Source: a virus (Duplodnaviria > Heunggongvirae > Uroviricota > Caudoviricetes). From it: a stretch of DNA of 34,768 bases. A program made the translations under genes and the position numbers. Positions 27,456 through 34,768 of the stretch are shown in pieces; the first letter of the stretch is position 1; each line of letters starts with the position of its first letter. A model generated the notes under the pieces. That model saw only the letters and a list, made by a program, of their open reading frames with translations. It did not search any database and was not told where the DNA came from. The DNA lies in the IMG/VR virus record IMGVR_UViG_3300029258_003331; one strand, given 5' to 3'.

Positions 27456-27543
27456 GCGAGCGTGGCGCAACGGCAGACGCGGCAGTTTGAGGGACTGTTT
27501 GGGCTTGTCCCTACTGGGAGTTCGAATCTCCCCGCTCGCACCA
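27456..27543 (+). tRNA. tRNA-Leu (GAG)
   Basis: Type II cloverleaf, loop TTGAGGG, CCA. Confidence 0.93.
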
Positions 27544-27559
27544 AAATGAAAGGATTTTT

Positions 27560-27636
27560 GCCCCCGTCGTCTAATGGTTTAGGACGCCAGTTTTTCATGC
27601 TGGATATTGCAGGTTCGAATCCTGTCGGGGGTGCCA
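27560..27636 (+). tRNA. tRNA-Glu (TTC)
   Basis: Loop TTTTCAT, CCA. Confidence 0.9.
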
Positions 27637-27654: not shown

Positions 27655-27831
27655 ATGCTCCACGTTGAAACCTGTAGGACGTGCGATAAATGGTGTGATT
27701 CCTATAAGGACATTGGAGAAATTGGAGCGCTGTGGGGAGTAGAGGTTTTCTTGGAGGAAATGGCCCGGGCAGAACCACCTCGGACCTGTCACCAAAAGGA
27801 GAAACATCAAGAAGGACGCGCTTCAGCATAG
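27655..27831 (+). CDS. Small Cys-containing hypothetical protein
   Basis: 58 aa, CxxC. The 3' end overlaps the permuted RNA. Confidence 0.35.
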   Translation: MLHVETCRTCDKWCDSYKDIGEIGALWGVEVFLEEMARAEPPRTCHQKEKHQEGRASA

Positions 27832-27948
27832 GACTACTTCTTTCAATCTGCAGACGGGGGTTCGATTCCCTCTGGGGCTACATCAGACGGCCCCATAGTG
27901 CAGTGGCAGCACGGCAGCACAAGCAGCCTACGCGGTTTTTGGCGTCCT
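27813..27948 (+). ncRNA. Circularly permuted tRNA-Glu-like RNA (YrlA/Y-RNA-like topology)
   Basis: Order is T arm (27856-27872), acceptor 3' strand TGGGGCT, 9-nt linker, acceptor 5' strand GGCCCCA, D arm. Enclosed by CTGC/GCAG, TAGG/CCTA and AGGACGC/GCGTCCT stems. Confidence 0.8.
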
Positions 27949-28016: not shown

Positions 28017-28355
28017 ATGGGAAAGAGTTGGAAGAGATATCCATGGACGTATTTTCGTTGCCCGCGTGGAGGGAAAAGCGCAAAAATCAACGGCGTAAGA
28101 TCTGGCTCAACTCCCCCGAACGAATGGGACGATGTTGACTACGACAGAGCGTGCTGGATTGCCGGCAAGGTGGCTTTAGCGCTGCACAAAAAGAGACGCG
28201 GAGACGATGAAATTGTCCGCCATTTGCGCAAGAAATTTGGATATGGACGTAAAATGGCTGTAAACGTCATAAGGTGGGCCAAGTCGTATAATGGGACTTG
28301 GAGACGCTGTGATTGTGAGTGCTGCAAAGAAAGCAGAAATGCCCCCATCGTCTAG
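28017..28355 (+). CDS. Basic hypothetical protein
   Basis: AAAGGAG RBS, 112 aa, C-terminal CxCxCC. Confidence 0.6.
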   Translation: MGKSWKRYPWTYFRCPRGGKSAKINGVRSGSTPPNEWDDVDYDRACWIAGKVALALHKKRRGDDEIVRHLRKKFGYGRKMAVNVIRWAKSYNGTWRRCDCECCKESRNAPIV

Positions 28356-28413
28356 TGGCCCAGGATGGCAGATTCTCAGTCTGCAGACACCGGTTCGAGT
28401 CCGGTTGGGGGTA
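28341..28413 (+). tRNA. tRNA-Glu (CTC), CCA not encoded
   Basis: GCAGA-TTCTCAG-TCTGC anticodon arm, full cloverleaf. Confidence 0.9.
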
Positions 28414-28423
28414 ATAAACAAAG

Positions 28424-28577
28424 AAAAGGCACGCTTCAGCGAGGAGATACTTCAGAGAAACCGGTGTCCTTCGGGACTTGTGGGTTCGAGCCCCACCGGG
28501 TCGTCCTCGGATGGCTTGTGGCGAAATTGGCAAACGCGCCGGTAAAAAGACACTCCTTGTATTTTTTGGTGCCTTTT
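28424..28577 (+). ncRNA. Circularly permuted type II (Leu-like) tRNA-like RNA
   Basis: ACCGG, variable arm GTCC-TTCG-GGAC, T arm, closed acceptor hairpin, D arm GCG-AAATTGGCAAA-CGC, CCGGT. Outer stems GAGGAG/CTCCTT and AAAAGGCAC/GTGCCTTTT. Confidence 0.8.
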
Positions 28578-28583
28578 GTTTTT

Positions 28584-28696
28584 AGGAAGCTGGAGGTTCA
28601 ATTCCTTCGTGTGGTCGTCCAAGAGCGCTCTTGGGGCTACTCCGCAGGTTGGCAAGCGCTTGCTGGCTAGCGGAAAGACGTGGTTGCCGGCTTCCT
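28584..28696 (+). ncRNA. Third, more divergent T-arm-first tRNA-like RNA
   Basis: GGAGG-TTCAATT-CCTTC T arm, long hairpin CCAAGA/TCTTGG, D-like CGC-AGGTTGGCAA-GCG, enclosing AGGAAGCT/GGCTTCCT. Confidence 0.5.
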
Positions 28697-32349: not shown

Positions 32350-32739
32350 ATGAGAGCGTTGATTGTGGATGACTCGTCCACCATCCGGCGCATTCAGATA
32401 CGGCTACTGACGAGCATGGGTTTTGAGGAGTTTGTGGAAGCGCGCGATGGCAAAGAAGCGCTTTTCGAGATGGAGCGCGGAAGGTTCGACCTCGTTACTC
32501 TGGACCTCAATATGCCGCGAATGGGCGGCTTGGAGTTCCTGAGCGAGATAAGAAAGACAGACCGGGAAACGCCAATCGTCGTAGCCACTTCTGATGCGGA
32601 TAGAATGACAGTTATCATGGCAGCAAAGAAGGGCGCAAACCAGTATATCATCAAACCGTTTACGCCTGACGTTTTTCGCGCCAAAATACAAAGGATTCTA
32701 CCAAAGGAAGGCAGCGATGAACAATCCGGAAAACGGTAG
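32350..32739 (+). CDS. Stand-alone CheY-like response regulator
   Basis: LIVDDS, LDLNMP (phospho-acceptor Asp), VATS, YIIKPF: all conserved receiver residues. Confidence 0.9.
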   Translation: MRALIVDDSSTIRRIQIRLLTSMGFEEFVEARDGKEALFEMERGRFDLVTLDLNMPRMGGLEFLSEIRKTDRETPIVVATSDADRMTVIMAAKKGANQYIIKPFTPDVFRAKIQRILPKEGSDEQSGKR

Positions 32740-33151
32740 GGGTAGGAGGAATCGGATTGGAGAGGTATTTCGGTGTCAGAAGTGTAGTCACACTGACAAT
32801 GCAGACGTAAATGCTGCCCGAAATATCTTGGACCGATTACTTACAGGACCCTACGGTGCCTGTTGCAAATCTGAAAATGTGGCTTAAAGGATATTTGTCT
32901 ACGTTTTCAGAAACGGTAAGGTAGACGCGGTACAGTACGAATACGCAGGGGAAATCGCCCGGCTGAATGCAGAACTCATTCGTGAACGTGAAAAACCGAC
33001 CTCGCTGTCGCCGGCGATTGATGTGAGGAAGTTGCGAGAAAAACACCAGGAGAGCCTGCTGGAGCGCGTAGAAGAGGGCACAGAGGATAGAAGACAACAG
33101 AGGGAACAGTTGAAATTGCAGATTGTCCCGGTTCGAATTCTGAAAAAATAA
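32717..33151 (+). pseudogene. Small helical-protein gene interrupted by a tnpB remnant
   Basis: Removing 32737-32916 joins MNNPENG to KVDAVQYEYAGE..., giving an 84-aa ORF with an AAGGAAGG RBS. Confidence 0.6.
32737..32916 (+). mobile_element. tnpB 3' remnant with IS607-like right end (omega/reRNA region)
   Basis: Encodes ENRIGEVFRCQKCSHTDNADVNAARNIL (Zn finger and RuvC-III) then ends ...GTCTACGTTTTCAGAAACGG. Confidence 0.8.
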
Positions 33152-33330: not shown

Positions 33331-33903
33331 ATGAAACTTTCAGAGTGGGCGAAACAGAATGGTTTGAGTTATCGGACGGCTCACCGCCTGTTCCAGAGTG
33401 GTAAATTGCCTTGTGAAGCACAACAACTCGCAACAGGCACCATATTGGTACACCCTACGGAAGAACCATCTTCTGGTGATTTTGTCGTACTTTACGGAAG
33501 AGTGTCCTCACGTGATCAAAAAGATAATCTTGAGCGTCAGATGAATCGTCTCCGCGATTACGCTTCGGAGAAGGGTTTTAGGGTTACGCAGGAGATTACG
33601 GAAATAGGATCTGGACTTAACGGATCGAGGAAAAAGCTTTTGAAGATTCTCTCTTCAAAATCTATCTCGACTATCATTGTTGAGCATCGAGATCGATTGT
33701 CTCGCTTTGGCGTTGACTACATTGAGGCAGCACTTGATGCTGCTGGCAAGAGGATAATCGTGATAAATGAAGAGGAAGAGACTTCTGATCTCTTAAAGGA
33801 TTTCACAGATGTAGTCACTTCTATGTGTGCAAGAATTTATGGTAGAAGGTCAGCAAAGAATCGGGCAAAAAGAGCGATAAAGGCAGCAGAAAGTGAAGAT
33901 TAA
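33331..33903 (+). CDS. tnpA: IS607-family serine transposase
   Basis: MerR-like HTH (MKLSEWAK..LSYRTA), then YGRVSS..Q, EIGSGLN, EHRDRLSRFG. Confidence 0.95.
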   Translation: MKLSEWAKQNGLSYRTAHRLFQSGKLPCEAQQLATGTILVHPTEEPSSGDFVVLYGRVSSRDQKDNLERQMNRLRDYASEKGFRVTQEITEIGSGLNGSRKKLLKILSSKSISTIIVEHRDRLSRFGVDYIEAALDAAGKRIIVINEEEETSDLLKDFTDVVTSMCARIYGRRSAKNRAKRAIKAAESED

Positions 33904-34768
33904 GCGATCAAGCAAATGCTCTTTGAAGTTTGCCAATGAACAGAAGAGAGAAACTCTGAGAAACATTCTTTGTGAGTATGCTAAAGTCGTTAACCACTTC
34001 ATTGATCTTTTCTGGTTATCCTGTCCTGCACGTTGTCAGCTTTTGAAGCCAATTGTCAATTCACCGACGACTTGGTTATCTGCCAGGTTAAGAAAAGTAG
34101 CAGCGCGTGAAGCAATTGGAATGGTCAAGGCTTCAAGAGAAAGAGATGGTAAGAAAGCAAGAAAGCCGAAACACAGAGGCAAATCAATGTCTGTCTCCAG
34201 CACGATTGCTGAGTTACAGCCAGCAAAACACGCAAGAGAGTTTGATGCTTGGTTGCACTTAGCTTCTATTGGTGAAAAGATTTCATTAGATTTGCCTATT
34301 CGTTTTCATGATCAATTCAATCGCTTATCTCAACGAGGAGTGCGCCTGAACAGCTACGTCATCACTGATAGGTGTGTCCAATTCTGTTTTGAAATTGAAA
34401 CAGGGTTGAAGCAAGCGATCAACAAGTGTGTCGGAATTGATACAGGGATAAATTCTCTTGCTACGCTTTCCACGGGAGAAAGGTTAGGAACAGATATCAG
34501 GGAGAGGATTGAGAGAGTCAAGCGTTGCAGGCATGGGAGTAAGGGACAGCAAAAGGCAGCGAGAGCATTAAGACAACGGATGGATGAGGTTGCCAGGGAC
34601 GTTACTGACAATGCTTCTTTGGTCGTTGTTGAGAAGTTGAAGGGGATAACAAAAGGCACAAGACTCAAACGTCGATTGAGTAAAAACATTCGACGCTCTA
34701 TTGGCAGTTGGAATGTTCGATATTGGTTATCCAGGCTTCAGCAAGACTGTGAGGATAAGAACGTTTCT
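33893..34768 (+). CDS. tnpB: IS607-associated TnpB RNA-guided nuclease (truncated by the window end)
   Basis: GTG start overlapping tnpA. Open to the window end, so absent from the ORF track. RuvC-I VGIDTGINSLATLSTG and RuvC-II VVVEKLKGI. Confidence 0.92.
   Translation, partial: MKIKRSSKCSLKFANEQKRETLRNILCEYAKVVNHFIDLFWLSCPARCQLLKPIVNSPTTWLSARLRKVAAREAIGMVKASRERDGKKARKPKHRGKSMSVSSTIAELQPAKHAREFDAWLHLASIGEKISLDLPIRFHDQFNRLSQRGVRLNSYVITDRCVQFCFEIETGLKQAINKCVGIDTGINSLATLSTGERLGTDIRERIERVKRCRHGSKGQQKAARALRQRMDEVARDVTDNASLVVVEKLKGITKGTRLKRRLSKNIRRSIGSWNVRYWLSRLQQDCEDKNVS

What the first reader, a model, noticed from the sequence alone, without database searches (positions are those of the whole stretch)
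27813..27948. Circularly permuted tRNA-Glu-like RNA inside a phage tRNA array
Seen: the 3' half of a tRNA (CTTTCAA, TCTGC, AGAC, T arm, TGGGGCT-A) comes first, then an 8-nt spacer, then the 5' half (GGCCCCA, TA, D arm GTGC/GCAC, GCAG). All 7 acceptor positions pair. The 3' half resembles the normal tRNA-Glu(CTC) at 28341 (both have TCTGCAGAC..GGTTCGA.TCC..TGGGG). A canonical-looking CU-UUC-AA loop sits at the break. Flanks form nested stems. Known: permuted tRNA genes occur in Cyanidioschyzon and Thermofilum, where they are matured by splicing; bacterial and phage YrlA Y RNAs have the same T-acceptor-D order with a closed acceptor loop. Inference: either a Y-RNA-like tRNA mimic (decoy for anticodon nucleases or tether for a Ro60/TROVE protein) or a precursor of a re-ligated tRNA. 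No Ro60 or RtcB gene is visible in this window.
Basis: partly seen in the sequence, partly recalled or inferred. Interest (0 to 1): 0.88.

Follow-up and report, generated by a model that had tools for sequence, protein, structure and literature searches.

The report
Phage Y-like RNA displaying permuted tRNA
This stretch encodes a small phage RNA in which a whole tRNA-Glu look-alike, written back to front, sits on a conserved two-stem handle; in related phages RNAs with the same handle lie directly beside a gene for the RNA-binding ring protein Ro60, so it is most likely a new variety of the known Ro60 partner "Y RNAs", not a tRNA gene awaiting re-joining.

Summary
Window 27813-27948 holds the 3' half of a tRNA, an 8-nt spacer, then the 5' half. 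Re-joined in silico, ARAGORN calls it tRNA-Glu(UUC).

It belongs to a family. A second copy lies at 28426-28575, with a Leu(GAG) type II body. I collected 46 distinct members in all, from this phage's syntenic relative (IMG/VR record G001, 253 kb) and from other uncultured phage contigs.

All members share a handle:
- closing stem P1;
- an internal loop, NCUUCA opposite RNUUYUUG;
- an 8-bp stem P2;
- WUACUUC, then a variable cargo: nothing, an anticodon-arm mimic, or a complete permuted tRNA.

P1 and P2 covary strongly. A model built without the window's sequences hits exactly 27813-27948 (39 bits, E 1e-8).

The handle RNA lies just upstream, on the same strand, of a Ro60 (TROVE plus Ro60-vWA) gene in 12 of 12 IMG/VR loci and at least 30 of 44 metagenome loci.

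It fails Rfam YrlA (27 versus 69 bits) and lacks the YrlA CGAA motif. I class it as a new variant of a known kind.

Caveat: no Ro60 gene was found in about 62 kb of this phage, and the syntenic slot is empty. Expression could not be tested.

This scan has already reported similar "tRNA on a handle" RNAs on other DNA. Those have a different handle and sit beside DUF2828 genes.

The parts
27813..27819 (+). Copy 1, P1 5' strand (AGGACGC)
   Evidence: Pairs 7/7 with 27942-27948. Within the R1 model hit 27813-27948.
27820..27825 (+). Copy 1, 5' side of the conserved internal loop (GCUUCA)
   Evidence: NCUUCA is present in nearly all 46 family members. CU.CA is invariant in alignment A2.
27826..27832 (+). 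Copy 1, P2 5' strand (GCAUAGG)
   Evidence: Pairs with 27927-27933 with one A-C mismatch. P2 covaries across the family.
27835..27840 (+). Conserved junction motif UACUUC. Its CUU (27837-27839) can pair with AAG at 27921-27923 (short P3).
   Evidence: WUACUUC is invariant in A2 and in the listed members. The P3 pairing is read from the sequences and is an inference.
27840..27846 (+). Anticodon-loop mimic CUUUCAA (Glu, UUC), displayed as a 7-nt bulge at the break between tRNA positions 31 and 32
   Evidence: The same loop is found in the orthologous G001 element at 124279-124433, although the stems differ.
27847..27855 (+). Anticodon-stem 3' strand UCUGC plus variable region AGAC
   Evidence: Pairs with GCAG at 27914-27917.
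27856..27872 (+). T arm (GGGGG UUCGAUU CCCUC)
27873..27895 (+). Acceptor stem closed into a hairpin: 3' strand UGGGGCU, A73, 8-nt spacer CAUCAGAC, 5' strand GGCCCCA
   Evidence: 7/7 pairs.
27896..27918 (+). U8 A9, D arm (GUGC AGUGGCA GCAC), G26, anticodon-stem 5' strand GCAGC
27927..27933 (+). Copy 1, P2 3' strand (CCUACGC)
27934..27941 (+). Copy 1, 3' side of the internal loop (GGUUUUUG)
   Evidence: Family consensus is RNUUYUUG, 8 nt, ending in G.
27942..27948 (+). Copy 1, P1 3' strand (GCGUCCU)
28426..28583 (+). Copy 2: same handle (AAGGCAC / GCUUCA / GCGAGGAG / AUACUUC ... CUCCUUGU / AUUUUUUG / GUGCCUU), carrying a permuted type II tRNA-Leu(GAG) body, followed by a T run at 28576-28583
   Evidence: 15/15 handle pairs in my scan. 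Fold. The un-permuted body is called tRNA-Leu(gag) by ARAGORN.
28586..28695 (+). Possible third module: T arm, hairpin-closed acceptor-like stem and a D-like hairpin inside a plain closing stem (GGAAGC/GCUUCC), without the handle motifs. Whether it belongs to the family is uncertain.
   Evidence: Fold. A counterpart with the same layout follows a handle RNA in G001 (L122 4066-4139).
27456..27636 (+). Context: canonical tRNA-Leu(GAG) and tRNA-Glu(UUC) genes, the same identities as the two mimics

Best explanation
27813-27948 is a gene for a small structured RNA of the Y-RNA type.

Its two ends pair to form a handle: P1, a conserved asymmetric internal loop (NCUUCA opposite RNUUYUUG), P2, then UACUUC. 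Shown: related phages encode handle RNAs directly beside a Ro60 (TROVE plus vWA) gene. Inferred: the handle is where that protein binds.

The handle carries a complete tRNA-Glu(UUC) look-alike. The acceptor end is closed into a hairpin. The backbone is opened between positions 31 and 32, so the 7-nt anticodon loop, T arm, D arm and acceptor helix are all displayed.

Inferred mechanism: the RNA works like YrlA and other Y RNAs. The handle holds the Ro60 ring. The tRNA-shaped module brings in, or competes for, a protein that recognises that particular tRNA. Candidates are a modification enzyme, a synthetase, RNase P or a host anticodon nuclease, possibly as part of a tRNA damage and repair response (G001 also encodes RtcB).

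Copy 2 (28426-28575) does the same with a tRNA-Leu(GAG) body.

Shown: anatomy, family membership, covariation, and genomic linkage to Ro60 in relatives. Inferred: Ro60 binding, and what the tRNA module recruits.
For: (1) Anatomy and ARAGORN calls of the re-joined bodies.

(2) The family has 46 distinct members with the same handle and different cargo.

(3) Covariation in 9 short members from other phages: 93.3% of cells paired, against 41-44% when the partner is slid. 12 of 15 pairs show changes on both sides. 0 of 500 shuffles reach the observed values.

(4) Model R1, built without the window's sequences, hits 27813-27948 at 39.1 bits, E 1e-8.

(5) Linkage to Ro60:
- In G001, a handle RNA ends about 425 nt upstream of the TROVE gene.
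- Same strand and 0.1-1.9 kb upstream in 12/12 IMG/VR loci of this TROVE subfamily.
- At least 30 of 44 metagenome loci.
- The shuffle control gave 11 scanner hits per 4.1 Mb.

(6) The partner proteins carry TROVE plus Ro60-vWA domains. Their nearest solved relatives are Thermus phage phiLo Ro60, human and Xenopus Ro60, and Rsr.

(7) The window phage is a syntenic relative of G001, with 42-89% amino-acid identity over tens of kb. G001 has an orthologous Glu mimic with the identical CUUUCAA loop but different acceptor and anticodon stems and one compensated pair in the T stem (G-U to U-A). It sits beside tRNA-Glu(UUC) and tRNA-Leu(GAG), as here.

(8) Precedent: YrlA has the T-acceptor-D order and is encoded next to Ro60 in bacteria and phages. 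M. smegmatis YrlA, which has a 7-bp acceptor stem, is cut by RNase P and receives CCA (PMC4201824). phiLo Ro60 binds upstream-encoded Y-like RNAs (PMC12135203).
Against: - No TROVE gene in the window (Pfam) or in about 62 kb of this phage by tblastn.
- The G001 segment carrying TROVE (55-71.5 kb) is absent at the syntenic position in this phage.
- The rest of the genome could not be reached, because all assemblies break at an IS607-type element and about 30 kb upstream.
- The handle lacks the GNCGAAN0-1G / CGAA motif shown to matter for Ro60 binding in known bacterial and phage Y RNAs.
- Rfam YrlA scores are far below threshold.
- Copy 1 is slightly off consensus: CGC instead of CAC at the end of P1, one P2 mismatch, and one extra base.
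Confidence: 0.7

Rival explanations
1. Ro60-independent tRNA decoy. In this phage, which may lack Ro60, the RNAs act alone or with another protein. They would be stable tRNA-Glu and tRNA-Leu look-alikes that soak up a host anticodon nuclease or another tRNA-targeting defence. The handle would serve only as a closing stem, terminator or stabiliser.
For: - No TROVE in about 62 kb of this phage, and the syntenic TROVE cassette is missing.
- Most family members in G001 lie 37-57 kb from the TROVE gene, inside the tRNA array.
- The anticodon loop sequence is conserved (CUUUCAA) while the acceptor and anticodon stems diverge.
- The mimicked identities match the phage's own canonical tRNAs.
Against: - The handle has a conserved asymmetric internal loop and junction motif that a mere closing stem would not need.
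- Cargo-less members exist, and they are the ones placed next to TROVE.
- Only part of this phage's genome was seen.
Confidence: 0.17
2. Circularly permuted pre-tRNA. The flanks are removed, positions 31 and 32 are ligated (for example by RtcB), and the acceptor loop is opened by RNase P and a 3' nuclease to give a working tRNA-Glu.
For: - The re-joined sequence is a good tRNA.
- G001 encodes RtcB.
- The 7-bp acceptor stem with A73 could be an RNase P substrate, as shown for M. smegmatis YrlA.
Against: - The same handle carries no tRNA, or only an anticodon arm with a T arm, in many members.
- The break point varies: 31|32, or 26|27.
- Several members close the acceptor helix with a UUCG tetraloop and leave no unpaired discriminator base.
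- By inspection there is no bulge-helix-bulge motif.
- No tRNA splicing endonuclease in G001. RtcB is absent from the other five handle-bearing records G002-G006.
- Canonical tRNA-Glu(UUC) and tRNA-Leu(GAG) genes lie next door, so no decoding gap is filled.
Confidence: 0.04
3. Member of the other phage handle-RNA family that this scan reported before: a closing stem followed by UUACAGCAA, encoded beside DUF2828/DUF7788 Ro60-shaped proteins, and resembling Dictyostelium Class I RNAs.
For: - The general design is the same: a closing stem, a CAG-containing motif just after it, and variable tRNA-like cargo.
- Felix O1 shows such elements next to a DUF2828+DUF7788 gene.
Against: - No DUF2828 or DUF7788 in G001 or in the window ORFs.
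- Model R1 finds nothing in the Felix O1 array.
- Rfam lists no Class I RNA match in the window at E up to 10.
- The motif differs (NCUUCA+P2+UACUUC against UUACAGCAA), and the linked protein here is a true TROVE protein.
Confidence: 0.05
4. Decayed remnant of two tandem tRNA genes, with no function.
For: The order '3' half, short spacer, 5' half' is what a deletion across a tandem pair would leave. The anticodon stem and variable region match the neighbouring tRNA-Glu(CUC).
Against: - Conserved non-tRNA flanks with compensatory changes across many phages.
- A second copy with a different tRNA body on the same handle.
- An orthologue in G001 with compensated stems.
Confidence: 0.02

Closest known systems
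YrlA (Y RNA-like A; Rfam RF02553; Chen et al. 2014, PMC4201824), partner of bacterial and mycobacteriophage Ro60/Rsr
   Same: - The ends pair into a two-stem handle with an asymmetric internal loop (5-6 nt opposite 8 nt, ending in UUG or UYG).
- A YUAY-type junction (UUAC/AUAC here) follows P2.
- The tRNA-like module runs T arm, loop-closed acceptor, D arm.
- Family members are encoded just upstream of a Ro60 gene on the same strand.
- A 7-bp acceptor stem, as in M. smegmatis YrlA.
   Different: - Fails the Rfam model (26.9 and 18.9 bits against 69).
- NCUUCA replaces the GNCGAAN0-1G/CGAA motif.
- The anticodon loop or the whole anticodon arm is present, so the mimic has a specific identity (Glu, Leu, Gly, Thr, Asn and others).
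- Many copies per genome, scattered in the tRNA array.
- Cargo ranges from none to about 200 nt.
- No Ro60 gene found so far in this particular phage.
Thermus phage phiLo Ro60 with Yrl1/Yrl2 (NAR 2025, PMC12135203; PDB 9KOP, 9L5Y)
   Same: A phage-encoded Ro60 with small stem-bulge-stem RNAs encoded directly upstream. phiLo Ro60 is the nearest solved relative of the partner proteins found here.
   Different: The phiLo RNAs carry the CGAA motif, and the paper does not use the term tRNA-like for them. The RNAs here have a different loop motif and carry tRNA mimics.
Circularly permuted tRNA genes of Cyanidioschyzon merolae and some archaea
   Same: The 3' half lies upstream of the 5' half, with a short linker joining the acceptor strands.
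   Different: Those precursors are processed through a bulge-helix-bulge motif by the splicing endonuclease and a ligase into working tRNAs. Here no such motif or enzyme was found, and the flanks are a conserved protein-handle-like structure shared with cargo-less RNAs.
Handle RNAs beside DUF2828/DUF7788 genes (Felix O1-type and other phages), reported earlier in this scan, and Dictyostelium Class I RNAs (RF01414)
   Same: The concept is the same: a constant closing stem and motif displaying variable tRNA pieces, encoded in phage tRNA arrays and linked to a Ro60-shaped protein.
   Different: The motif differs (UUACAGCAA, no P2/UACUUC), the protein family differs, and there is no cross-detection by model R1 or Rfam.

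Membership tests
YrlA (Rfam RF02553) | Score at or above the Rfam gathering threshold (69 bits) | tested here: not met
   26.9 bits on the core 27848-27920 and 18.9 bits on copy 2. Relatives score 27-34 bits, no better than junctions between ordinary adjacent tRNAs.
YrlA (Chen et al. 2014) | 5' motif GNCGAAN0-1G (CGAA) proposed for Ro60 recognition | tested here: not met
   The sequence at that place is CGC-GCUUCA-G (copy 1) or CAC-GCUUCA-G (copy 2). The family consensus is NCUUCA.
YrlA (Chen et al. 2014) | tRNA-like domain in the order T arm, stem-loop in the acceptor position, D arm | tested here: met
YrlA (Chen et al. 2014) | Encoded within 4 kb of a Ro60 orthologue on the same strand | tested here: not met
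   For this element there is no TROVE in the window or in about 62 kb of the phage. For the family the feature is met by other members: 12/12 IMG/VR and at least 30/44 metagenome TROVE loci.
Y RNA in the broad sense (RNA partner of Ro60) | Physical binding to Ro60 | not testable with these tools
   Only genomic linkage in relatives is available.
Y RNA in the broad sense | 5' and 3' ends pair into a stem interrupted by a conserved internal loop; size about 60-200 nt | tested here: met
   P1 and P2 covariation, model hit, length 136 nt.
Circularly permuted tRNA gene (matured to a tRNA) | 3' half upstream of the 5' half; the two together form a full cloverleaf | tested here: met
   ARAGORN calls the re-joined sequence tRNA-Glu(ttc).
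Circularly permuted tRNA gene (matured to a tRNA) | Bulge-helix-bulge motif at the junction, and a splicing endonuclease to cut it | tested here: not met
   The junction is P2 / 3x3-nt loop / 3-bp CUU-AAG / 7-nt bulge opposite CAC, read from the sequence. PF01974 is absent from G001. No such domain among the window ORFs scanned.
Circularly permuted tRNA gene (matured to a tRNA) | A mature linear tRNA with the junction joined | not testable with these tools
DUF2828-linked handle RNAs / Class I RNAs (RF01414) | Closing stem followed by UUACAGCAA-type motif; DUF2828 gene nearby | tested here: not met
   no RF01414 match listed; no DUF2828 or DUF7788 in G001; R1 finds nothing in the Felix O1 array.
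tRNA (RF00005) | Contiguous cloverleaf with free acceptor ends | tested here: not met
   Not called by ARAGORN or Rfam in the genomic order. The acceptor end is a closed hairpin.

The most novel reading that the evidence does not exclude
Large phages use Ro60 ring particles loaded with a panel of full, identity-specific tRNA mimics (Glu-UUC, Leu-GAG, Gly-UCC, Thr-UGU, Asn-GUU, Met-CAU arms and others). Each copies one of the phage's own tRNAs down to the anticodon loop. They would act as decoys or sentinels for host tRNA-cleaving defences, with cleaved mimics or tRNAs handed to RtcB for repair. That would give Y RNAs a concrete job in phage-host conflict.
Probability: 0.2. Interest if true: 0.85.

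Novelty: new variant of a known kind. Interest (0 to 1): 0.62.

Why it matters
Ro60 and its Y RNAs are conserved from bacteria to humans. Yet what the tRNA-like part of bacterial Y RNAs recruits is still unknown.

This family offers a natural experiment. One constant handle is linked to a phage Ro60 gene and displays cargo that runs from nothing to complete tRNAs of defined identity, anticodon loop included.

That makes two questions directly testable:
- Which handle nucleotides does this Ro60 subfamily read, given that the known CGAA motif is absent?
- Which tRNA-recognising protein is the target of the mimic?

It also matters for annotation. These elements sit in phage tRNA arrays and are invisible to tRNA finders and to Rfam.

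Tried and rejected
A longer pattern found G001.
- The neighbouring 112-aa ORF has no relatives in IMG/VR. blastn against GenBank phages found only a tRNA-Glu match.
- No whole genome is held for the window. ENA and metagenome records cannot be searched as handles.
- I walked the phage's contigs with five look-ups. This reached about 28 kb upstream and showed that every assembly stops at the IS607-type element on the right, so the rest of the genome stayed out of reach.
- The metagenome TROVE scan returned sister samples (Ga0180429-438) but no contig from the window phage's own JGI sample series, Ga0180431.
- Model R1 with filters off scored the long-cargo copies poorly: 14.7 and 13.1 bits. The long insert is penalised, so copy 2's membership rests on my pairing scan (15/15) and the shared motifs.
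- The promoter consensus scan found nothing near the elements.
- A profile alignment of the handle with YrlA was only done by eye. The spacing is the same and about 10 of 21 positions are identical from P1 to YUAY. I do not count this as evidence.

Full report
**What is there**

The window is part of an uncultured large phage. It carries a tRNA array with 16 tRNA genes between 26363 and 33274. Between tRNA-Glu(UUC) (27560-27636) and tRNA-Glu(CUC) (28340-28414) lies the flagged stretch.

Read 5' to 3', it contains the following:
- stem strand AGGACGC
- GCUUCA
- stem strand GCAUAGG
- A-C-UACUUC
- a 7-nt loop-like CUUUCAA (its first C is the last base of UACUUC)
- UCUGC, then AGAC
- a perfect T arm
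- UGGGGCU-A, then an 8-nt spacer, then GGCCCCA
- UA, then a D arm with the GG dinucleotide
- G, GCAGC, ACAAG, CAG
- CCUACGC, GGUUUUUG, GCGUCCU

All seven acceptor positions pair. The two outer stems (P1 and P2) are predicted by RNAfold. ARAGORN and the Rfam tRNA model do not see the element in genomic order. When the 5' half (27889-27918) is placed before the 3' half (27840-27880), ARAGORN calls tRNA-Glu(UUC).

**It is one of a family**

A second element at 28426-28575 has the same flanks: AAGGCAC / GCUUCA / GCGAGGAG / AUACUUC ... CUCCUUGU / AUUUUUUG / GUGCCUU, followed by a T run. Its body is a different, type II tRNA, which ARAGORN calls Leu(GAG) once un-permuted.

A pattern combining the shared flank with a T loop found one IMG/VR record, a 253-kb phage contig that I call G001. 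G001 has at least nine such elements.

A second pattern, based on the 5' motif only, found further phage contigs. In that scan the true members had 14-15 of 15 possible P1+P2 pairs with a downstream partner. The chance matches had 10-12.

In all I collected 46 distinct elements. They share:
- P1, 6-8 bp or longer, usually ending CAC/GUG
- a 5' loop strand NCUUCA (rare variants GCUCCA and GCUUCU)
- P2, 8 bp
- WUACUUC
- the cargo
- the 3' strand of P2
- an 8-nt loop strand RNUUYUUG
- the 3' strand of P1, usually followed by a T run

**Structure is conserved by compensatory change**

I aligned nine short members from other phages, none from the window. In that alignment P1 and P2 are 93.3% paired, against 41-44% when the 3' partner is slid by 1-3 columns. 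Twelve of 15 pairs show changes on both sides. None of 500 column shuffles reaches the observed values.

A covariance model built from that alignment (R1) hits the window at exactly 27813-27948. It spans the full model, at 39.1 bits and E about 1e-8, with the tRNA body treated as an insertion.

Copy 2 is too long for R1. It still has 15 of 15 handle pairs and all the motifs.

**The cargo varies**

- Some members have only a short hairpin after UACUUC, at 61-73 nt in total.
- Some carry an anticodon-arm look-alike plus a T arm, for example CUUUU-CUCAUAC-AAAAG in G001 at 106985.
- Others carry whole permuted tRNAs.

Eight un-permuted bodies from four phages are all called tRNAs by ARAGORN: Glu(UUC) twice, Leu(GAG), Gly(UCC), Thr(UGU), Asn(GUU), Ser(GCU) and one ambiguous call.

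The point where the handle enters the tRNA differs between members. In the window's two copies, in G001 124279 and in one G003 element it lies between positions 31 and 32, so the anticodon loop is a 7-nt bulge. In others it lies between 26 and 27, so the whole anticodon arm is a local hairpin.

The G001 element at 124279-124433 is the orthologue of the flagged one. Both carry the loop CUUUCAA. Both sit beside tRNA-Glu(UUC) and tRNA-Leu(GAG) genes. Yet their acceptor and anticodon stems differ throughout, and the T stems differ at one compensated pair (G-U to U-A); pairing is kept in all three. So both the tRNA shape and the loop sequence appear to be under selection.

**Link to Ro60**

G001 encodes a TROVE-domain protein at about 68.5-70.2 kb. 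A cargo-less handle RNA sits at 68021-68083, immediately upstream on the same strand.

Three further records (two phages) have TROVE genes. Each is preceded by a promoter-like sequence, two handle RNAs and a tRNA-Met.

I aligned three of these proteins and used the alignment as a query.
- It returned 12 IMG/VR loci. Eleven show a handle RNA upstream on the same strand with my strict scanner. The remaining phage has a GCUCCA variant.
- Of 44 metagenome loci with at least 300 nt upstream, 24 have a handle RNA by the scanner and six more by R1.
- The scanner's background rate was 11 hits in 4.1 Mb of shuffled sequence.

The proteins have TROVE plus the Ro60-type vWA domain. Their nearest solved relatives are Thermus phage phiLo Ro60, vertebrate Ro60 and Deinococcus Rsr. 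G001 also encodes RtcB. The five other handle-bearing records (G002-G006) do not.

**Relation of the window phage to G001**

Proteins from the window and from about 28 kb upstream of it match G001 in the same order, at 42-89% identity. The exception is the G001 segment 55-71.5 kb. That segment holds the TROVE gene and its RNA, and it is missing at the corresponding place in this phage.

No TROVE was found by Pfam in the window ORFs. None was found by tblastn in about 62 kb of this phage. All public assemblies of the phage stop at an IS607-type element on the right and about 30 kb to the left. Whether the phage has a Ro60 gene elsewhere remains open.

**Comparison with what is known**

YrlA RNAs are encoded next to Ro60 in more than 250 bacteria and 22 phages. 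They have the T-acceptor-D order, a 5' GNCGAAN0-1G motif and a YUAY after the second stem. The M. smegmatis RNA, with its 7-bp acceptor stem, is cut by RNase P and receives CCA (PMC4201824). Thermus phage phiLo Ro60 binds two upstream-encoded stem-bulge-stem RNAs through a CGAA motif (PMC12135203). [quoted passage not shown]

The present family shares the architecture, the YUAY-like UUAC/AUAC and the gene linkage.

It differs in these respects:
- It fails the Rfam YrlA model: 26.9 and 18.9 bits here and 27-34 bits in relatives, against 69. That is no better than junctions between ordinary adjacent tRNAs.
- It has NCUUCA where the CGAA motif would be.
- It displays the anticodon loop or the whole anticodon arm, which the tRNA-like domain of published YrlA (T, acceptor, D and V) does not include.

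I found no paper in the held library that describes it.

Earlier reports of this scan describe a similar design on other DNA: a handle RNA beside a DUF2828 gene, as in Felix O1. I checked Felix O1 directly. Its handle is different (GACCNN-UUACAGCAA ... GGUCUGG). R1 does not detect it. G001 has no DUF2828 or DUF7788.

**Why not a tRNA precursor**

- The handle is shared with RNAs that carry no tRNA.
- The break point varies between members.
- Several members close the acceptor helix with a UUCG tetraloop.
- The junction is not a bulge-helix-bulge motif.
- G001 has no splicing endonuclease.
- The mimicked identities duplicate canonical genes next door.

I put this reading at a few percent.

**Verdict**

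The feature is real. Its anatomy is as described. It is best read as a Y-RNA-type tRNA mimic of a previously uncatalogued, Ro60-linked phage family.

Still inferred: Ro60 binding, the target of the tRNA module, and whether this phage has its own Ro60.

Noticed in passing
window 28586-28695; L122 4066-4139: Directly after copy 2 lies a third permuted tRNA-like module: T arm, an acceptor-like stem capped by its own hairpin, and a D-like hairpin. It sits inside a plain closing stem (GGAAGC/GCUUCC) and has none of the handle motifs. G001 has a module with the same layout directly after one of its handle RNAs. Single-sequence folding is not significant (z -1.9 and -0.3).
   Followed up: partly
window 27655-27831: A 58-codon ORF (MLHVETCRTCDKWCDSYKD..., cysteine-rich, with a GAGAAGG Shine-Dalgarno-like sequence upstream) ends 19 nt inside the 5' end of copy 1. 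It is not called in the public gene tables. Whether it is a real gene is unknown.
   Followed up: partly
L144 300-3210; L158 750-2976; G001 68021-70232: In three phage lineages the Ro60 gene is preceded by a compact unit. In two of them this is a TTGCAAAC...TATAGT promoter-like sequence, two handle RNAs and a tRNA-Met, plus a 215-aa ORF in one lineage. In G001 it is one handle RNA and a tRNA-Met. The consistent tRNA-Met is unexplained.
   Followed up: partly
L163 6000-7470 compared with G001 55-71.5 kb: The roughly 16-kb G001 segment holding Ro60 and its adjacent RNA is an insertion or deletion relative to the window phage. The Ro60 cassette therefore seems to come and go while the array-embedded handle RNAs stay.
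   Followed up: partly
window 33331-34768 (and 32717-32887): An IS607-type pair (serine recombinase plus TnpB) sits at the right end of the window, with a tnpB fragment nearby. Every public assembly of this phage ends here, which suggests a repeated or polymorphic insertion.
   Followed up: partly
G001 (whole record): ARAGORN finds 57 tRNAs in G001. One has anticodon CUA and is labelled tRNA-Pyl, that is, a possible amber suppressor.
   Followed up: no
L158 about 650-745: Just upstream of the Ro60 RNA unit in G003 the sequence ends like a tmRNA 3' end (GGAGUUCGACUCUCCUCGCCUCCACCA), so this may be a phage-encoded tmRNA.
   Followed up: no
L171 5804-5873; L122 5390-5458: Two members vary the otherwise constant loop strand (GCUCCA and GCUUCU instead of NCUUCA). 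These variants are useful for defining which loop bases matter.
   Followed up: partly
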